Part shown: positions 40,026 through 64,000 of the stretch, one piece after another
Layout: every line of letters begins with the position of its first letter
Position numbering within the stretch: the first letter of the stretch is position 1
Assembly: GCA_019637395.1 (NCBI GenBank)
Contig: JAHBVR010000009.1
Location: 266,412 to 330,411 of the forward strand
DNA: 64,000 nt
Direction: 5' to 3'
DNA from: Vulcanimicrobiota bacterium
GTDB lineage: Bacteria > Vulcanimicrobiota > Xenobia > Xenobiales > JADMJV01
Translations under genes and position numbers: made by a program
Notes under the pieces: model-generated
Databases searched by the model: none
The model's input: the letters and a program-made list of their open reading frames with translations, nothing else
Told to the model about the DNA's origin: nothing

Positions 40026-40262
40026 ATGAGAATCATTAACGTCCACGAAGCCAAGACACATCTTTCCAAGCTACTAGAGGACGTAAAAGCCGGCGAGGAG
40101 ATCGTGCTGGCCAAAATGGGAAAACCCTATGCCAGGTTGGTGCCCATAGACCAGCCCAAGCCGGTAAGGCTGGGATTTTTAAGCGGTTCGGTCGGTGACG
40201 ATATTCTCCAACCCATGTCGGATGAAGAGTTGGCAGACTGGGAAGGGCCGATCCACCCTTGA
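40026..40262 (+). CDS. vapB: Type II antitoxin (Phd/YefM-type, VapB-like)
   Basis: IINVHEAKTHLSKLLEDVKAGEEIVLAKMGKPYARLVP. 4-nt overlap with the downstream PIN gene. Confidence 0.75.
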   Translation: MRIINVHEAKTHLSKLLEDVKAGEEIVLAKMGKPYARLVPIDQPKPVRLGFLSGSVGDDILQPMSDEELADWEGPIHP

Positions 40263-40648
40263 TACGCCTTCTTCTGGATACCCATGCGCTGCTCTGGGCC
40301 TGGACGGAGCCTGCAAAATTGTCGGAGACCGCCCGCGCATTGATTCAAGAACCTTCGAATACTCGTTGGGTCTCGCCCGTGACCGGTTTTGAGATCTCCC
40401 AGAAGTATCGATTGGGAAAGCTGCAGGTGGAGCCTGGCCTGGTCAGCAACTACACCGACCATCTGCGCACTTTCCAGGCAGAAGAACTCCCCCTCCTGTC
40501 AAAACACGCTCTGTATGCCGGTGGGCTTCCAGGCGAACATAGAGACCCGTTCGACCGTCTTCTGGCCGCCCAGAGTTTGTTAGAAGGTGTTCCCTTGCTG
40601 ACCGCCGACCCGGCCTTCCTCGGCTTTGGAGTCCAGACGATTTGGTAA
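40259..40648 (+). CDS. vapC: PIN-domain toxin VapC
   Basis: LLDTHALLW (Asp1), DPFDRLLAAQ, C-terminal Asp in LLTADP. Confidence 0.85.
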   Translation: MIRLLLDTHALLWAWTEPAKLSETARALIQEPSNTRWVSPVTGFEISQKYRLGKLQVEPGLVSNYTDHLRTFQAEELPLLSKHALYAGGLPGEHRDPFDRLLAAQSLLEGVPLLTADPAFLGFGVQTIW

Positions 40649-57686: not shown

Positions 57687-58073
57687 CTACCAAATTCTCT
57701 TGACCCCGTAGGCGTCAAAGATCGGATCTCGCGAAATCAACCTCAATTGGTGATGCTGGCATTGGGAAACCAGAAGCCGGTCAAAAGGGTCGCCGTGGTG
57801 AGGGGACAGGTTCTCGACCCCCAGGCAGTCCTGCAGGCTGATGGGCAACGGCAAAAACTGGTATTTCTCGGTGGCCTCCCGGAAGAGTTCGGCCGTTCCA
57901 ACTTTGAGACGAAGCTTTCCCAGGGCAACCTTGATGGCCATCTCCCAGGCCGAGGCCAGGCTGAAATAGACTTCGTGAGCACCGTCTTTCAGGATATCCA
58001 GGGCTGCGGGACTCAGGCGGGAGCCGCCATCATAGCACCAGATCAAGGTATGGGTGTCGAGAAGCAGCCTCAT
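57687..58073 (-). CDS. vapC: PIN-domain toxin VapC (second copy)
   Basis: LLDTHTLIW, GDPFDRLLVSQ. Confidence 0.85.
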   Translation of the reverse strand: MRLLLDTHTLIWCYDGGSRLSPAALDILKDGAHEVYFSLASAWEMAIKVALGKLRLKVGTAELFREATEKYQFLPLPISLQDCLGVENLSPHHGDPFDRLLVSQCQHHQLRLISRDPIFDAYGVKRIW

Positions 58074-58298
58074 TTATTGGTATTCTTTGAAGTCTTCCAG
58101 AGGTGCGTCGAAGTCGTCGGCCATGTACAGGACAGATCCGGGCCTACCCAAGGAACGGGTGCGCCGGGGTTCCTGGTGGACGACAAGCCGCACGACAGGC
58201 GTTCGCCCCCGGGCGATGATCACTTCCTCCCCCGCCAACACTTCCTGGATCAAACGTGATAGATGCGTTTTGGCTTCATGGATCGTGACAGTTTTCAT
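58074..58298 (-). CDS. vapB: Phd/YefM-type antitoxin (second copy)
   Basis: VTIHEAKTHLSRLIQEVLAGEEVIIARGRTPVVRLV. Abuts the vapC start. Confidence 0.75.
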   Translation of the reverse strand: MKTVTIHEAKTHLSRLIQEVLAGEEVIIARGRTPVVRLVVHQEPRRTRSLGRPGSVLYMADDFDAPLEDFKEYQ

Positions 58299-58439
58299 TC
58301 TTTCAGCTTATCAGACTAAGTCGCTTAGTCAAGACTTTCACCAGGGAGCCCTGGTTGTTACCAATCTTTTTCAAAGTTATTTCAGTTGTACTTCGTATCC
58401 TGGTTGCAGAATCTCTAAAGCAAGGGGCAAGGAATCGAG

Positions 58440-60752
58440 ATGAGCAGCTTTCGTGTAGGTGGAGTACCCCTCGACGCGCAGAAAATCAACAAAGCCTTCC
58501 TGGAAAAGATGATCGCCAACGTTGACAAAGCGCAGCCTACCGAAGGCAAAGAGCTGGCCTCTCAAGCTTTGACCGAAATCTTCGAGAAGGGCGAGATGTC
58601 GCCCGGCGGTCTGGAAGGGCTGCAAGCTTACGGCAAAGCCGTAAGCAAGGAATGGAAAGCCGACAAGGACGCCATTTGGGCCGCCAAGCAGGCCGCTCCG
58701 GTAGATAACGCCACCATCGAAGCGCGCCGCACCAATCTCAACAGCAACGCCCCGTTCTTAGGCCAGTACAATACCCTGATCGACAACCTCAGAGAGCAGA
58801 CCGCCAAGGCGGCTGTGCAGGCGATGGCCGGCTCCAGCTTTGGTCCCACCAACTTGGTGGCCGGCTACGCAGCCTGGCTCAACGGCCCGAAATGGGACAA
58901 CAGCGCCAACAAAAAGACCACCGAACTGGTGAATACTTACAAAGAATACCTGACCGAAAATTCGCCCATGACCACTCGGGGCAACACCGTGCAGCAAGTG
59001 CACCGGGCCGAGCTGTGGAAGACCCTGACCGGCCTGACGCGCGAAGCCGCCGAAGGCGGCAAGGCCGGCAAGCCTCAGGAAATCACCGCTCAGTATTACG
59101 AATTGACCTCTCCTGAACTGGTCGGCAATCTGGCCGAAGCCGCCAGAGCGGGCAGCAAACTGCGGCTCAACCTGGACGCCGGCCGACTTTCCTATCCGGC
59201 CACCGATCCGCTCACCAACACGGAGTATTTCCAGGTCGACGAGATCGCTAAAAAGATGCGCACGGTGGTCCAGTTCACCGAAATCGAAGGCGCCGACGTG
59301 GCCGTCTCCCTGTTCCCTTCCAAAGGTGAACTGGGCAGCGCCGAAGACCTGATGCACCGCAAAGTTTTGCGGGTGGGCGAGAAAGTTCTCATGAGCGGAA
59401 TGAACGGCAACGTCAGTTCCGGCGAGAACGTGGACGCCGGCTACGTGATCGAGGGCCCGGCCGCCCGCGCCTTCACCCAGAACGTGGCTCGTGACATCGC
59501 CACCTCGGCGGGCGCCGATGGCGAAGCCATCTGGGGCAAGAAGCAGTTCGAGAAGTTCGACAAGAGCGACCTGAGAGTAAGCAGCTCCGGCCTGGTCGCC
59601 TTGCTGGACAGCCTGAACGGGCCCAGCCCGGCCGGCAGCAAATCGGCCCATCCCAAGTCCGTCGAAGACCTGGAAAAGCTGGCCAAACAGGCCGGAGTCG
59701 AGCTGGCCTCGGTGGTCGAAGTGCCGGCGGACGGATTCGACTCGCTGCTCAACAGCGAGGGTGTGGTCAGCCTCAGCCAGGAAGGCAAGAAACTGCTGAA
59801 AGGCCTGATGGAGCGCGGAGTTGCCGCCACTCAGACGGCCAAGAACCTCGAGCGCCTCAGCGACGTCGGTCTGCCCGAAGGCAAGGCCAACGGCAAGACG
59901 GTGGTCGACATCGCCGACCAGCCGGCCGAACGCGAGACGCTGGTGCTCAACGCCATCAACCAGGCCAAGGAGTTCATCTACATGCCCGGCTTCGTGGTCA
60001 CCCGGGCCGTGGCCGCCGCCATTGTGGCCAAGCAAGAGCAGGCCATCCAGGATGGCAAGCCGCTCGACATCAAAGTGGTGGCCGACTCGGGAATCTACCC
60101 GTTCGGCGGCACGCCCAACAGCTTTGGCGTGGATTACCTGGAAGATCACGGCATCTCGGTGCGTTGGGCCAAGCTGCAACGGACCGGTTCCCACGACCGC
60201 AAGGTTCACGCCAAGCAGATCCTGACGGATCAAGGCGAAATCGCCGGTTCCACCAATTTCTCGGCCAAGGGCATGCGGGAAAATTGGGAAACTTCGGCTT
60301 ACGTCCACTTCGAGGAAAAAGACGCCCAGGCCCAGGCCCTGAAAGCTCAGTCCAAGGCTCAATTCGAAGACCTGTGGGAAAATAACAGCTACGCGCTTTC
60401 CGTAACCGACTTGGCCCGTTTGTATTCAAGAAATGAGCAGGCCGAAGGCCATGAGCATTTCGTGGACAGCGCCCGGGCGGGAGCCACCCGCGAGGTGCTC
60501 ACCGCCATCGAGAACTACGAAGTAGAAACCGGCGCGCTGATGGGGAGATTGCACGAAGAGCGCCGCGAGGTGGCCGACAAGAAGGCTTCCTTCATCCAGC
60601 AGGGCTATTCCGACGGAGATGCTATGTTGATGGCCGCCGATGCAGTGGTAGGGAAAGACGAACTGTCCAAACTGACCTCCGCGCTGCCCTCCAGCATCGA
60701 GCTGGAGCGCCTCCACTCCAAGGTGGAGCGCTGGAAAGCCAAGGGGGAATAG
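58440..60752 (+). CDS. Phospholipase D superfamily protein with two HKD motifs and extra N- and C-terminal regions
   Basis: Motif 1 HRKVLRVGEKVLMSGMNGN (degenerate). Motif 2 HAKQILTDQGEIAGSTNFS (perfect HxKx4Dx6GSxN). 770 aa, no signal peptide or TM. Confidence 0.75.
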   Translation: MSSFRVGGVPLDAQKINKAFLEKMIANVDKAQPTEGKELASQALTEIFEKGEMSPGGLEGLQAYGKAVSKEWKADKDAIWAAKQAAPVDNATIEARRTNLNSNAPFLGQYNTLIDNLREQTAKAAVQAMAGSSFGPTNLVAGYAAWLNGPKWDNSANKKTTELVNTYKEYLTENSPMTTRGNTVQQVHRAELWKTLTGLTREAAEGGKAGKPQEITAQYYELTSPELVGNLAEAARAGSKLRLNLDAGRLSYPATDPLTNTEYFQVDEIAKKMRTVVQFTEIEGADVAVSLFPSKGELGSAEDLMHRKVLRVGEKVLMSGMNGNVSSGENVDAGYVIEGPAARAFTQNVARDIATSAGADGEAIWGKKQFEKFDKSDLRVSSSGLVALLDSLNGPSPAGSKSAHPKSVEDLEKLAKQAGVELASVVEVPADGFDSLLNSEGVVSLSQEGKKLLKGLMERGVAATQTAKNLERLSDVGLPEGKANGKTVVDIADQPAERETLVLNAINQAKEFIYMPGFVVTRAVAAAIVAKQEQAIQDGKPLDIKVVADSGIYPFGGTPNSFGVDYLEDHGISVRWAKLQRTGSHDRKVHAKQILTDQGEIAGSTNFSAKGMRENWETSAYVHFEEKDAQAQALKAQSKAQFEDLWENNSYALSVTDLARLYSRNEQAEGHEHFVDSARAGATREVLTAIENYEVETGALMGRLHEERREVADKKASFIQQGYSDGDAMLMAADAVVGKDELSKLTSALPSSIELERLHSKVERWKAKGE

Positions 60753-60816
60753 CCATTCATGTCTTTTTCAGGAGGTCCGTCTACACTGTAGTCACTCGGG
60801 AAGGACATTTGAGACT

Positions 60817-61983
60817 ATGAATTCGGTCAGCAATCGCAACATTCTCCGCCAGGAATTCAAAAAAGAACTCCAGGGCTACTATCAGCTCAACGGCCAAAAG
60901 AATGGCTCGCCCATCGAAGGAACCATCTATCCTCCCGATATCACTCCCAACGACCAGGTGGCCTTAGAGAAACGGGTTGATGAGCTCTCCAGCTTCCTGG
61001 CCAGCAAAGAGGGGATCAATTTCCGGCCCACACCCGAGTTCGGCAAAGGCCGCGTCGAAGACCGCGCCCAGGTGGCTGCCAGCGCTTCGGGCTGGGTCAA
61101 GGCCTCGAGCCGGGTGGCCCTGCAGACGGCCACCAGCATGATTGGCAACCCCGCCATCCAGGCCATGGTCAACGAGGGTCTCAAGGGCTGCGAAGCGGAA
61201 TTCTTTACCGCCCCCTCCTCCAAGTCCGGAATGTTCCATCCCGCCGATGAGATCAACGAGGGCGGACTGGCCCTGCACACCGCGCGCGTGGTGCAGATGG
61301 GCGAGCATCTGGGCGAGTTTTTCGGCCTGAACGCCAGCGAGAAGGACAACCTGCGGGCCGGCCTGGTACTCCACGATTCGGTCAAAGGCGGCGACCCCTG
61401 GGCGGGTTACTCCAACGAGCACGGCGAGCTGGCCGGCCAGTTCATTGCCAGCCTGAACGGTCCGGCCGACGCCAAAGCCGTGGCGGCGCAGATTGCCACC
61501 AATCACATGGCCCTGTGGCGCCAGAAGAACGACGGCACTCCCAACCCGGCCGTGCCCGACAACAAAATGGACATGATTGCCTCCCTCTCCGACTACCTGG
61601 CCGCGCGCGACAACATCTACGTCGACGTGCCCGGCGTCGACAAGTCCATCGCGCCGATTTCCACCCCGGAAGACCGCATGAAGCCTCAAGTCTACAGCGG
61701 CACCACCAAGAACCGCTCCAAAGAGTTCCCGCGCGGCATGGAGATCACCATGGACAAAGAAGATCTCCACGTCGTCATCAACGGCAAGACCTACACCGGC
61801 AAGATCAACGACCCGGAAATCAAGGATGGATACTTAAGCTACGGTGGCTTTGAGGGCAAAGAGCTCGAAGGCATGTCCGTGAAAGCCAACTTCTGGCTGC
61901 TGACCGGCGCCAAAGGCGGCAAGGTCGTGTTGGGTAAAGGCGCCGAAACCGCCGAATACTTCGTGCGCCCGCCTCAAGCGTAG
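60817..61983 (+). CDS. HD-domain (metal-dependent phosphohydrolase-like) protein
   Basis: LALHTARV ... LVLHDSVKGG (H...HD motif pair). 388 aa. Follows the PLD gene on the same strand. Confidence 0.6.
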   Translation: MNSVSNRNILRQEFKKELQGYYQLNGQKNGSPIEGTIYPPDITPNDQVALEKRVDELSSFLASKEGINFRPTPEFGKGRVEDRAQVAASASGWVKASSRVALQTATSMIGNPAIQAMVNEGLKGCEAEFFTAPSSKSGMFHPADEINEGGLALHTARVVQMGEHLGEFFGLNASEKDNLRAGLVLHDSVKGGDPWAGYSNEHGELAGQFIASLNGPADAKAVAAQIATNHMALWRQKNDGTPNPAVPDNKMDMIASLSDYLAARDNIYVDVPGVDKSIAPISTPEDRMKPQVYSGTTKNRSKEFPRGMEITMDKEDLHVVINGKTYTGKINDPEIKDGYLSYGGFEGKELEGMSVKANFWLLTGAKGGKVVLGKGAETAEYFVRPPQA

Positions 61984-63187
61984 CTTCAGCTTAGAATAAG
62001 CTCTTGCGCTCGCCTGCTCTCCGCCGGTCAGGTCTGATAGGAACGAGCCACGCCCAGCTCCGCCCTTAGTGATCAATCCAAGCAAATGGTGCCAACTTCG
62101 GCCGCTAAGCCTGCAGGAAAGTCTCGATGTCACCGTCCCGATAGGCGCAAAGGTTCGGAGTGGCACCTCGATGAAATCCGCAACTTGCTTCTCACTGAGG
62201 ACTCGTTGAGAAGCCCGCGCAGATGGACCCAGATCCGCACCATCCATGTCGGAAAGCTCCTGTGGTCCTTGTGACAACTCTAGATCTATCGGCAGAGGGG
62301 GCTTCCGGCGGGGCCCACCGAGAAGGGCGTAGCTCGAATTCGTTCGCCCGGGCCGGCCACAGGCTTCGTCTCGCTGCACACTGTGCGGACACCACGCGGA
62401 CCGTGGATCTCGAAGACGTCTCTCCAGGAAGCGTTGAGCGTGGCCCCCTCCACAGCGGATGAAAGGTCAACTCGATCACTACCCCAAGGATCATTGATAG
62501 CGGGCTCGTCGCCAGCGCTCAAGTGGCTTGGCTTGTTGGCTTGAGTTCTGCTCCAGTCGGTTTGGCGGACGCCGTTCGAGATGGTGTTCATTTTCGAGTC
62601 TCCCATATCCAAAATCTGCTCTTTGCATCTCGCCGGGCCAGGATGAACAGTCCGCCGATTTGCGATTCCAGGTACCCTTGGATACCGTTTGGCCGCTGTT
62701 TGCGGTCCGTTGAGTAGAGATTACCCACTCGAGGTGATGAGAAGATGATAAGAGCCAAGGTTTTGTGAACGGATTGTGAACTTGTCCTGTGCTTTCTGCG
62801 ATGCAGGGTGTCTGGCCGCAGTAGCGTCCCGGCGCGCCAAACGATATCGTCGAGCTTGAATTCGGCCGGTTCGCCGGTTCGCCAAGCCGCATGGCCAGTG
62901 TGAAACGGCAGAGTATGATAGCAACTGTTACTCGATGCTGAAGAAGTCCAAGCCCTACCGGCCGTAAGAGCTGGCTCAGGACCTGCTCAGAAATCGGCCA
63001 AGCGAAAAGCGGGTCTGCTTAGCCGTGTCCAAATTTGAAGTAAGTCTCAATGAAAGAACCAGAAATTGACTCTTGACAAAGGCGGTAAAGAACTCGGCCA
63101 GCTTTAGCTCTCCGTCTGGCTGACGGTCCAGTGATGGCCACTTTGGCGCGATAACGTGCCGCAGTGGTCATCTCAACCAATAGATCG

Positions 63188-63811
63188 TTAGCCTTGTTCT
63201 GCCTTATTCCGCCAAAATGAGGCGCGCTCAGGGTCACTAGGCAAACCAGAAGCACCAGCCTCATACAAATCGGCAAGAACGCCTGCTGTCTCAACTGAAA
63301 CTTCCGGATTAGTTCCTGACGCAGCTTTTTCGAGCCATCCAATTCCCTCAGGAGTATGAACGGGCCCGCCCTCGCCTCTTAGAAGCATCAAGCCAAGATT
63401 ATACTGAGCGGTCTGTTCGTTCTGTTCAGCCGCCAAGAAATACCATCTACGGCTTTGCTCGAGGTCTTGACCCAGACCATCCGAGTTGGTCGCCAGAAGA
63501 GTCGCCATCTCAAGCTGTGCAGATGATTCACCCGCCTCTGCATGCTCCTGAAGAAGGCGTCTGGACAGATTAAGACCCTCGTCGATTTCAGCAACAAGTT
63601 GCACGGCTTCAAGGTGGCCAGCAGTGGCTGCCTTTCGGAGCCAGTCTACTGCCTTCTTGTAAGCTGGGCCGTGTTGACGATACCAACGATAGCCAAGGAT
63701 AAACTGCGCTTCCCTGTCACCTTGTCTAGCTTCTCTGTCAACATTGGTCCAGATATCGCCCTTGATTCGTTCACCTTGATCAATCCGTTGTTTCAGAAGA
63801 GAAAATTCCAT
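63188..63811 (-). CDS. Sel1-like repeat (SLR) protein
   Basis: Repeated AQYNLGLMLLRGEG..D...A..W..KAA-type Sel1 units. Markedly lower GC than neighbouring genes. Confidence 0.7.
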   Translation of the reverse strand: MEFSLLKQRIDQGERIKGDIWTNVDREARQGDREAQFILGYRWYRQHGPAYKKAVDWLRKAATAGHLEAVQLVAEIDEGLNLSRRLLQEHAEAGESSAQLEMATLLATNSDGLGQDLEQSRRWYFLAAEQNEQTAQYNLGLMLLRGEGGPVHTPEGIGWLEKAASGTNPEVSVETAGVLADLYEAGASGLPSDPERASFWRNKAEQG

Positions 63812-63870
63812 TGCTTCCTATCCGATCGCAAACCAACGCTACCCTGTACAAGCGCATTGGCAGTGTCTGG

Positions 63871-63897
63871 TATAAACATACCCATTAGGCATGTTTA
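63871..63897. promoter_or_regulatory. Inverted repeat ATAAACAT-N11-ATGTTTAT upstream of the Sel1-repeat gene
   Basis: Perfect 8-bp arms read directly, about 60-85 nt upstream of the minus-strand start. Confidence 0.3.
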
Positions 63898-64000
63898 TTG
63901 CTCTTTTTGAAGCCTGACAAAGTTCAAACCAATGCATAGAGCGCTCTCTAACACGGCATTGCGCAAAATCGGCTACACCAGCGTGCTGGACAGCATTGAA

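What the first reader, a model, noticed from the sequence alone, without database searches (positions are those of the whole stretch)
57687..64000. Terminal accessory island: vapBC, two-HKD phospholipase-D-family protein, HD-domain protein, AT-richer spacer and Sel1-repeat protein form a candidate toxin/immunity or defence module
After the housekeeping E1 dehydrogenase the content changes. A vapBC pair (57687-58298) is followed on the opposite strand by a 770-aa two-HKD PLD-superfamily protein (58440-60752) and an HD-domain protein (60817-61983). About 1.2 kb with no convincing ORF follows, noticeably AT-richer than the window average by eye. A Sel1-like-repeat protein (63188-63811) then lies on the other strand behind its own inverted repeat. 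Two readings are possible. (a) The PLD+HD pair is a nuclease/phosphohydrolase antiphage-type module in a TA-marked defence island; I do not recognise this pairing as a named system. (b) The PLD is a Tle5-like interbacterial phospholipase effector and the Sel1-repeat protein its immunity partner; Tli5b-type immunity proteins are Sel1-like. Against (b), no T6SS genes, PAAR/VgrG or signal peptide are present.
Basis: partly seen in the sequence, partly recalled or inferred. Interest (0 to 1): 0.8.

Follow-up and report, generated by a model that had tools for sequence, protein, structure and literature searches.

The report
Native PLD–HD enzyme pair, not island
The supposed toxin/immunity or defence island is a patchwork: a native, vertically inherited pair of phosphoesterase genes found only in the uncultured Xenobia bacteria, flanked by an unrelated toxin-antitoxin insertion on one side and a foreign Sel1-repeat gene with insertion sequences on the other.

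The parts
58440..60752 (+). Two-HKD PLD-superfamily phosphodiesterase, 770 aa. N-terminal helical domain found only in this family (aa 1-175), PLD lobe 1 (about 176-345), helical insert (about 346-484), PLD lobe 2 (about 485-650), C-terminal helical domain.
59355..59429 (+). HKD motif 1, HRKVLRVGEKVLMSGMNGNVSSGEN. Gly replaces the canonical Asp.
   Evidence: Translation. H306, K308, N322 and N324 invariant in 39 sequences.
60207..60257 (+). HKD motif 2, HAKQILTDQGEIAGSTN (canonical).
   Evidence: Translation. H590, K592 and N606 invariant, D597 nearly invariant.
60817..61983 (+). HD-domain metal-dependent phosphohydrolase, 388 aa, with a C-terminal 8-stranded beta-barrel (aa about 290-388, nt 61684-61980). 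Operon partner of the PLD, separated by a 64-nt gap.
   Evidence: Invariant H141, H154, H186-D187, K190, H202, H230, D259. AF2 pLDDT 92.9. Foldseek match to YhaM 9h3f, E 1.3e-4. Homologs carry PF01966. Adjacent to the PLD in L001/L012, L009, L011, L014, L015, L090, L092.
61237..61377 (+). Core H...H...HD metal-binding segment of the HD domain.
   Evidence: Translation HPADEINEGGLALH...LVLHD. Weak alignment to YhaM.
57687..58298 (-). vapBC type II toxin-antitoxin pair (vapB 58074-58298, vapC 57687-58073). An independent insertion, not part of the PLD-HD unit.
   Evidence: PIN E 2e-11 and PhdYeFM_antitox E 2e-9. Present only in near-identical loci L006-L008. L013 has a GNAT gene in the same slot.
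61984..63187 (.). Non-coding or degenerate spacer. Other assemblies of the same strain end at 62958, and GC drops after that point.
   Evidence: No Pfam, Rfam or tRNA hit. Flat codon-position GC. L007 and L008 are 100% identical over 975 nt and then end. GC 0.573 then 0.524.
63188..63811 (-). Sel1-repeat protein, 207 aa, cytoplasmic. A foreign, strain-specific gene beside IS elements, unrelated to the PLD-HD unit.
   Evidence: Pfam Sel1 E 1.2e-18. GC3 0.44, CAI z -2.6. Nearest homolog only 57% identical. An IS5-like DDE transposase and IS66 TnpB follow in L006.

Best explanation
The region is a composite. Its core, PLD 58440-60752 plus HD 60817-61983, is a native, vertically inherited two-gene operon of the class Xenobia (Eremiobacterota/Vulcanimicrobiota). 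It is one clade of a PLD family that appears restricted to Xenobia. That family has a private N-terminal helical domain and occurs in 1-5 copies per genome.

Shown: both proteins keep every catalytic residue, so both are probably active enzymes.

Inferred mechanism: the PLD attacks a phosphodiester through the usual covalent phospho-histidine intermediate (H306/H590). The metal-dependent HD enzyme, with its slightly basic beta-barrel as the substrate-binding module, then processes the phosphorylated product, either as a phosphatase or as a 3'-exonuclease.

My preferred substrate is nucleic acid: DNA or RNA end-cleaning or turnover, analogous to TDP1 or PLD3/4 followed by a 3'-phosphatase or a YhaM-type exonuclease. 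I read this as a cellular function rather than an immune or toxin function.

vapBC is an unrelated toxin-antitoxin insertion. The Sel1 gene with the IS elements is a separate, recently acquired piece.

Sub-confidences: composite structure and native operon, about 0.8; nucleic-acid substrate, about 0.4.
For: Native and vertically inherited:
- PLD and HD have GC 0.608, equal to the window mean. GC3 is 0.78 and 0.81, and CAI z is +1.3 and +1.8, like the E1 dehydrogenase gene.
- In L013 the PLD is 90% identical and its conserved neighbours are 81-94% identical, which fits descent together.
- There are no plasmid or phage copies.

The pair is real:
- The PLD and the long HD form are adjacent on the same strand, 42-93 nt apart, in at least 8 distinct loci with otherwise unrelated flanks.
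- PLDs linked to an HD gene are monophyletic in a neighbour-joining tree (no support values computed).
- Identities of the two genes fall in step: 88/89, 78/83, 61/69, 54/55%.

The family as a whole:
- 90 hits in about 43 assemblies of the one-genome-per-species collection. Those with informative names are Xenobia/UBP9/Bruticola.
- Gut lineages have one copy, syntenic with an EngB-like GTPase gene (my identification; Pfam MMR_HSR1). Other clades each have their own synteny.
- The N-terminal domain occurs only in this family: 10 hits in 1.84 billion proteins, either 741-796-aa proteins like the family's members or short fragments of 115-159 aa.

Active enzymes: invariant HKD and HD residues.

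Lean towards nucleic acid:
- The HKD domain of 39/39 members matches DpdK, 33/39 match DrmC and 4-5 match NucT. None matches the Cls, PssA or PLD lipid models.
- 12 of 27 HD members match YhaM, and YhaM is the only significant fold match.
- One paralog clade appears co-transcribed with sbcD-sbcC, with a 39-nt gap.
- The barrel is the only basic module, pI 8.2 against 5.2 for the HD domain.
Against: - All profile matches to nuclease-type PLDs and to YhaM are far below the curated cut-offs (18-23 bits against 100-133; 12.8 against 460).
- Both proteins are acidic overall, pI about 5.4-5.6.
- The C-terminal barrel also resembles lipocalin/FABP folds, which bind lipids.
- In L001 the pair sits between PhoD and an Exo_endo_phos gene, which would also fit phosphate scavenging from lipids.
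- Flanks of the PLD-HD pair are poorly conserved and contain TA modules in 2 loci, and Septu plus Cas remnants in 1. That is some resemblance to a variable or defence region.
- Vertical descent is calibrated against flanking genes in only one relative (L013).
Confidence: 0.45

Rival explanations
1. Phospholipid turnover or remodelling pair. The PLD hydrolyses or transphosphatidylates a glycerophospholipid to phosphatidic acid plus head group. The HD enzyme, holding an acyl chain or lipid in its lipocalin-like barrel, removes the phosphate, as in a PLD -> phosphatidate phosphatase route to diacylglycerol. It might serve phosphate scavenging.
Confidence: 0.3
2. Unnamed two-gene antiphage defence module. 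A PLD-type nuclease plus an HD nuclease degrade invading or host nucleic acid. The module sits in a variable, TA-marked region.
For: Both domains have nuclease-type relatives used in defence: weak DrmC, DpdK, PbeA and ZacB hits, and an HD domain as in Cas3. Flanks of the pair differ between species. TA modules lie nearby in the window and in L092. Septu, Cas5e/Cas6e remnants and an RNase_T-WYL gene lie 3.5-9 kb from the pair in L015.
Against: PADLOC and NCBIfam scores are far below the cut-offs, and no partner genes of DISARM, Dpd, Pbe or Azaca were found. Composition is native and CAI is high. The pair forms a single clade present in all the closest relatives, rather than a patchy distribution. 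There are no plasmid or phage copies. Known defence genes lie near only 1 of 8 distinct loci. Other family clades are embedded among housekeeping genes. vapBC is common in this genome, with a second pair at 40 kb.
Confidence: 0.15
3. Tle5-like interbacterial phospholipase effector with the Sel1-repeat protein as its immunity partner.
Against: The Sel1 gene has GC3 0.44 and CAI z -2.6. It is convergent, 1.2 kb away, lacks a signal peptide or lipobox, and sits next to IS elements. It accompanies no other PLD locus, and its nearest homolog (57%) and a 42% homolog (L089) have no PLD neighbour. The conserved partner of this PLD is a cytoplasmic enzyme with intact active-site residues, not an inhibitor-like periplasmic protein. 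No VgrG, Hcp or PAAR family was reported in any flank examined; one search lists only the 25 commonest Pfam families. The N-terminal domain is not shared with other toxins. Identity to PldA is 15%.
Confidence: 0.03

Closest known systems
P. aeruginosa PldA (Tle5a; PDB 7v53) and eukaryotic-type or Streptomyces phospholipases D
   Different: Only about 15% identity. The N-terminal helical domain is private to this family. There is no T6SS linkage and no conserved periplasmic immunity gene. HKD motif 1 has Gly in place of Asp. No lipid-PLD, Cls or PssA sequence profile is matched.
Nuc/NucT, DrmC (DISARM) and DpdK: single-HKD PLD-type nucleases and defence-associated PLD proteins
   Same: The C-terminal HKD domain of all 39 family members gives its best, though weak, profile matches to these. 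Nuc and NucT superpose on one lobe at rmsd 2.0-2.4 A.
   Different: Scores are 18-23 bits against cut-offs of 100-133. Those proteins are small single-domain proteins that dimerise, or are parts of multigene systems whose other genes are absent here.
PLD3/PLD4 5'-exonucleases and TDP1 (two-lobed PLD-superfamily enzymes acting on nucleic-acid ends)
YhaM 3'-5' exoribonuclease (PDB 9h3f)
   Same: The HD partner's only significant fold match (E 1.3e-4, 21% identity over 178 columns). 12 of 27 family members touch the YhaM model. The H...HD metal site is shared.
   Different: NCBIfam score is 12.8 against a cut-off of 460. YhaM has an N-terminal OB fold, whereas this protein has a C-terminal 8-stranded barrel and a long N-terminal extension.
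E. coli ClsC-YmdB and ppk-ppx operons (PLD-fold enzyme plus a hydrolase partner)
   Different: There is no sequence similarity to ClsC, YmdB, PPK1 or PPX. PPK1 lacks HKD motifs. YmdB is a macrodomain protein, not an HD protein.
VapBC type II toxin-antitoxin
   Same: A PIN toxin with Phd/YefM-type antitoxin directly upstream, abutting genes, and a VapB-like C-terminal toxin-binding tail.
   Different: Nothing unusual. It is simply not linked to the PLD-HD pair in any other genome.

Membership tests
PLD superfamily (two-HKD) | Two HxK(x)4D(x)6G(S/G)xN motifs | tested here: met
   Motif 1 is HRKVLRVG..SGMN, with Gly at the Asp position. Motif 2 is HAKQILTD..GSTN. H/K/N are invariant in 39 sequences.
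PLD superfamily (two-HKD) | Profile match above the curated threshold and a bilobal PLD fold | tested here: met
Tle5/Tli5 T6SS phospholipase effector-immunity pair | Genetic linkage to T6SS components (VgrG, Hcp, PAAR) | tested here: not met
   No such family was reported in the window flank or in 10-kb flanks of the PLD-HD loci. The Pfam scan of 92 flank proteins lists only the 25 commonest families. Whole genomes could not be scanned.
Tle5/Tli5 T6SS phospholipase effector-immunity pair | An adjacent cognate periplasmic immunity gene conserved with the effector | tested here: not met
   The Sel1 gene has no signal peptide, is convergent and 1.2 kb away, and is compositionally foreign. It is absent from all other PLD loci. 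The conserved neighbour is a cytoplasmic HD enzyme.
Tle5/Tli5 T6SS phospholipase effector-immunity pair | Phospholipase activity that is toxic in the periplasm | not testable with these tools
   Needs expression and lipid assays.
Named PLD-containing defence systems (DISARM DrmC, Dpd DpdK, Pbe, Azaca ZacB) | Protein scores above the family cut-off | tested here: not met
   DpdK 23.3 bits against 100; DrmC 18.3 against 133. PADLOC E-values of 1e-8 to 1e-3 cover one HKD domain only.
Named PLD-containing defence systems (DISARM DrmC, Dpd DpdK, Pbe, Azaca ZacB) | Presence of the system's other genes nearby | tested here: not met
   A PADLOC scan of 92 flanking proteins from 8 loci found only Septu (PtuAB), Cas5e/Cas6e and weak ankyrin or Cas3-HD hits. 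The strong hits are all in L015.
Defence-island gene (guilt by association) | Homologs are frequently next to known defence systems | tested here: not met
   1 of 8 distinct PLD-HD loci has defence systems within 10 kb, and TA pairs lie near 2 of 8. Other paralog clades sit beside an EngB-like GTPase gene, sbcDC, a nucleotidyl-transferase gene and a spermidine-synthase-like gene. The sample is small.
HD-domain metal-dependent phosphohydrolase superfamily | H...HD...H...H...D metal-ligand pattern and the HD fold | tested here: met
   Invariant H141, H154, H186-D187, H202, H230, D259. Fold match to the YhaM HD domain. PF01966 is recorded for many homologs. The query alone gives no Pfam hit.
YhaM exoribonuclease family | Equivalog-level profile score and OB-fold plus HD architecture | tested here: not met
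   12.8 bits against a cut-off of 460. There is no N-terminal OB fold; a C-terminal beta-barrel is present instead.
Cardiolipin synthase / PssA-type phosphatidyltransferases | Match to Cls or PssA profiles; housekeeping lipid-gene context | tested here: not met
VapBC type II toxin-antitoxin | PIN toxin with an upstream small antitoxin gene in one operon | tested here: met
   PIN 45 bits against 23.6; PhdYeFM_antitox 37.5 against 29.8; a VapB C-terminal match; abutting genes.

The most novel reading that the evidence does not exclude
The Xenobia long-PLD family is a radiation of nucleic-acid-directed PLD enzymes. The PLD-HD clade would be a previously unknown two-enzyme system. It could be a TDP1-like DNA-end-cleaning pathway, in which the PLD removes a 3' adduct and the HD removes the resulting 3' phosphate or nucleotide. 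Alternatively it could be a new chromosomally fixed antiviral nuclease pair.
Probability: 0.2. Interest if true: 0.6.

Novelty: new variant of a known kind. Interest (0 to 1): 0.3.

Why it matters
Read as an island, the finding would have suggested a new defence or effector-immunity system. The data instead show an uncharacterised, lineage-defining enzyme family in a class of bacteria (Xenobia) with no cultured representative that I know of. That class includes inhabitants of the human and animal gut. The family has at least ten paralog clades, each with a different conserved partner: HD, sbcDC, an EngB-like GTPase gene, or a small secreted protein. If the PLD-HD pair proves to act on nucleic-acid ends, it would be a bacterial analogue of the eukaryotic TDP1/PNKP logic. 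If it acts on lipids, it would be a new route for membrane remodelling. Either way it is a defined biochemical target, though not a categorically new kind of system.

Tried and rejected
1. Is the small secreted protein downstream of a sister PLD clade (about 130 aa) homologous to the HD protein's C-terminal barrel, making a recurrent immunity-like partner? hhalign probability 0.1%. Rejected.
2. Is the PLD N-terminal domain a modular trafficking domain shared with other toxins? An exhaustive phmmer search found 10 hits, all 741-796-aa proteins like the family's members or short fragments. Rejected.
3. Are there mobile-element copies? tblastn of the PLD against plasmids and phages found no match.
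4. Is the spacer an RNA gene, a tRNA integration site or a recognisable pseudogene? Rfam, ARAGORN, Pfam on six spacer ORFs, and blastn/tblastx against related loci all found nothing.
5. Can IS or island boundaries be set from repeats in L006 11-15.8 kb? Only short repeats of chance quality were found.
6. Promoter and terminator scan of 57.5-64 kb: counts were not above the shuffled expectation.
7. Does the partner of a Sel1 homolog (L089, 356 aa) survive as a remnant next to the window's Sel1 gene? No.
8. Foldseek against afdb50: the library was unavailable.
9. Short HD homologs (270-300 aa, no barrel) are not next to PLD genes, so only the long form is the PLD partner.
10. Literature search for a PLD+HD defence system, or for any description of this family: none found.

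Full report
**Observation**

- Pfam confirms a PIN toxin (57687-58073, -) and a Phd/YefM-type antitoxin with a VapB-like tail (58074-58298, -).
- It also confirms a PLDc_2 protein of 770 aa (58440-60752, +) and a Sel1-repeat protein (63188-63811, -).
- The PLD has two HKD motifs, HRKVLRVG...SGMN and HAKQILTD...GSTN. Their His, Lys and Asn residues are invariant in 39 homologs.
- The 388-aa protein (60817-61983, +) gives no Pfam hit itself. Many homologs carry PF01966. H141, H154, H186-D187, H202, H230 and D259 are invariant. Its confident AF2 model (pLDDT 92.9) has one significant PDB match, the HD domain of the exoribonuclease YhaM (E 1.3e-4).
- The 1.2-kb stretch 61984-63187 contains no credible gene. 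Its ORFs lack any codon-position GC signal, and there are no Pfam, Rfam or tRNA hits.

**Is there a compositional break after E1?**

Only partly.
- The window's 1-kb GC is 0.609 +/- 0.023. PLD and HD are both 0.608.
- GC3 is 0.78 for the PLD and 0.81 for the HD. Codon-adaptation z-scores are +1.3 and +1.8, the same profile as the E1 dehydrogenase gene.
- vapBC is slightly low (GC 0.567; CAI z -0.3 and -1.0). The proximal spacer is 0.573.
- The real break is at about 62959: distal spacer 0.524, Sel1 0.516 (GC3 0.44, CAI z -2.6), and 0.471 beyond.
- Two independent assemblies of the same strain (L007, L008) are 100% identical up to 62958 and end there.
- In the GenBank contig that contains the window (L006, GCA_026129085.1), Sel1 is followed by an IS5-like DDE transposase, IS66 genes and the contig end.

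**Source organism and the PLD family**

The HD and Sel1 proteins are identical to entries from a 'Candidatus Eremiobacteraeota' MAG. The PLD has 91 full-length homologs of about 740-860 aa at 38-90% identity.

A scan of one genome per species returned 90 hits in about 43 assemblies.
- Assemblies with informative names are Xenobia, UBP9, Candidatus Bruticola or Vulcanimicrobiota. Several others carry unrelated labels that I take to be mislabels (inference).
- Environmental genomes have 2-5 loci each. Gut and rumen lineages have one.
- A neighbour-joining tree (no support values computed) shows at least ten paralog clades. Most have their own conserved synteny: an EngB-like GTPase gene downstream in the gut lineages (my identification; Pfam MMR_HSR1); an apparent PLD-sbcD-sbcC operon with a 39-nt gap; a nucleotidyl-transferase gene; a DUF4178 / spermidine-synthase-like block; tandem PLD duplicates; and a small secreted 130-aa protein with secreted ankyrin-repeat neighbours.
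- The N-terminal 175 residues occur nowhere else. An exhaustive search of 1.84 billion proteins gave 10 hits, either 741-796-aa proteins like the family's members or short fragments. The domain is therefore part of the enzyme, not a shared trafficking module.

**The PLD-HD pair**

The long HD form lies directly downstream of the PLD on the same strand in the window and in L001/L012, L011, L014, L015, L009, L090/L091 and L092.
- The gaps are 42-93 nt. In L015 my ORF calls overlap, because the HD start there is uncertain.
- These PLDs form a single clade. PLD and HD identities fall together: 88/89, 78/83, 61/69, 54/55%.
- The flanks differ between species: PhoD and an Exo_endo_phos gene; ClpB; an ankyrin-HD_5 gene and PilZ; DUF5691.
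- The exception is L013. Its PLD is 90% identical, and the threonyl-tRNA-synthetase ... TPR-SecC - hypothetical - E1 - [slot] - PLD order is kept, with neighbours 81-94% identical. In that slot L013 carries a GNAT gene where the window carries vapBC.
- Shorter HD homologs without the C-terminal barrel are not PLD-linked.
- There are no plasmid or phage copies of the PLD.

I conclude that PLD-HD is a native, functionally coupled operon inherited vertically within a Xenobia sublineage. The vertical calibration rests on one relative.

**vapBC and Sel1**

vapBC is found only in the near-identical loci. A second vapBC pair lies at 40026-40648 in the same window, so a toxin-antitoxin pair does not mark an island in this genome.

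The Sel1 gene shows no link to the PLD.
- It has no close relatives. The next best homolog is 57% identical, on a contig of about 1 kb.
- It has no PLD neighbour in a 42%-identical homolog's locus.
- It lacks a signal peptide, is convergent with the operon, and is absent from every other PLD locus.
The defining features of a Tle5/Tli5 pair are not met here.

**Defence reading**

- PADLOC and NCBIfam give only domain-level matches (DrmC, DpdK, PbeA, ZacB), far below the cut-offs.
- I scanned 92 flanking proteins from the 8 distinct PLD-HD loci. Strong defence hits occurred only in L015: Septu PtuAB, Cas5e/Cas6e remnants and an RNase_T-WYL gene, 3.5-9 kb from the pair and separated from it by pseudopilin-like genes.
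- L092 has a PSK_trans_fac/PIN toxin-antitoxin pair 1.4 kb downstream.
- This is weak association on a small sample. Together with the native composition and the single clade, it makes a dedicated immune function possible but not favoured.

**What the enzymes do**

The PLD model is confident (pLDDT 91.3). The evidence on substrate points in two directions.

Towards lipid:
- The HD protein's barrel also resembles lipocalin and FABP folds.
- L001 has PhoD next door.

Towards nucleic acid:
- At profile level, all 39 family members match DpdK, 33 match DrmC and a few match NucT. None matches a Cls, PssA or lipid-PLD model.
- 12 of 27 HD proteins touch the YhaM model.
- One paralog clade sits with sbcDC.
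- The HD protein's C-terminal barrel is its only basic module, pI 8.2.

Both proteins are soluble and acidic, with no transmembrane segment.

I therefore commit, at about 0.4, to sequential processing of a nucleic-acid phosphodiester. The PLD would act through a phospho-histidine intermediate and leave a phosphorylated end. The HD would act as a 3'-phosphatase or exonuclease. Phospholipid turnover is the main rival, at about 0.3. All steps beyond 'both are probably active phosphoesterases encoded in one operon' are inference.

**Verdict**

The gene calls are confirmed, but the 'terminal accessory island' is not. It is a native lineage-specific operon between two unrelated accessory insertions. 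The Tle5/Tli5 reading is not supported. The defence reading is weakened but not excluded. The family is an undescribed variant within the PLD superfamily; no literature on it was found. Interest is modest.

Noticed in passing
window 40026-40648 (+): A second vapBC-like pair: antitoxin 40026-40262 and PIN toxin 40259-40648, overlapping by 4 nt. They are 42% and 33% identical to the pair at 57.7-58.3 kb, so there are two such modules in 64 kb.
   Followed up: partly
L013 7015-7674 (+): In the relative whose PLD is 90% identical, the slot between E1 and the PLD holds a 219-aa GNAT acetyltransferase gene instead of vapBC. The slot looks like a small insertion hot spot.
   Followed up: partly
L072 3027-9589; L076 9386-15957; L079 8715-15283: One PLD paralog clade (about 808 aa) lies 39 nt upstream of sbcD, followed by sbcC overlapping sbcD by 4 nt. 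This looks like a PLD-sbcDC operon in three assemblies.
   Followed up: partly
L038, L046, L048, L059 (about 7.6-12.3 kb in each): Tandem pairs of two divergent PLD paralogs (about 741 and about 752 aa) are conserved in four assemblies. They are followed by a glycine-rich membrane-like protein on the opposite strand.
   Followed up: no
L015 4396-13018: Downstream of a PLD-HD pair lie pseudopilin-like genes (N_methyl, DUF7305), then orphan Cas5e and Cas6e without cas3/cas1/cas2 in view, then Septu PtuB/PtuA and an RNase_T-HTH-WYL gene.
   Followed up: partly
L004/L024/L025/L026/L028/L029, just downstream of the PLD: A conserved secreted protein of about 130 aa (signal peptide plus a beta-rich domain; no Pfam hit in the member tested) follows one PLD clade on the same strand. 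Secreted ankyrin-repeat proteins are recurrent neighbours. The arrangement resembles an effector-immunity pair but was not tested.
   Followed up: partly
P0132, P0133 (short HD homologs): Some 290-300-aa relatives of the HD protein, lacking the C-terminal barrel, start with signal-peptide-like hydrophobic segments. This suggests that some branches of this HD family are exported.
   Followed up: no
window 62958/62959; L007 and L008 contig ends: Two independent short-read assemblies of the same strain end at the same base, where GC also drops. This fits a repeat or strain-variable junction at the start of the Sel1/IS segment.
   Followed up: partly
window 63019-63171 (-): A 50-aa ORF (MTTAARYRAKVAITGPSARRRAKAG...) starts 17 nt after the Sel1 stop codon on the same strand. 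It has no Pfam hit and may be a small co-transcribed gene or a remnant.
   Followed up: partly
record titles of L011, L015, L018, L022, L069, L073, L075, L084: Public MAGs labelled Burkholderiales, Selenomonadaceae, Riflebacteria, Synergistia, Bacillota or Armatimonadetes carry full-length members of this PLD family, which otherwise appears only in Xenobia. Their taxonomic labels are probably wrong (inference).
   Followed up: no
L090/L091 1996-3204 and 7974-8330; L014 8354-9559: An ankyrin-repeat + HD_5/HD protein lies upstream of the PLD-HD pair in L090/L091, where a PilZ gene lies downstream. In L014 the upstream 402-aa neighbour falls in my ankyrin-containing cluster c25. These may be c-di-GMP-related neighbours.
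   Followed up: no
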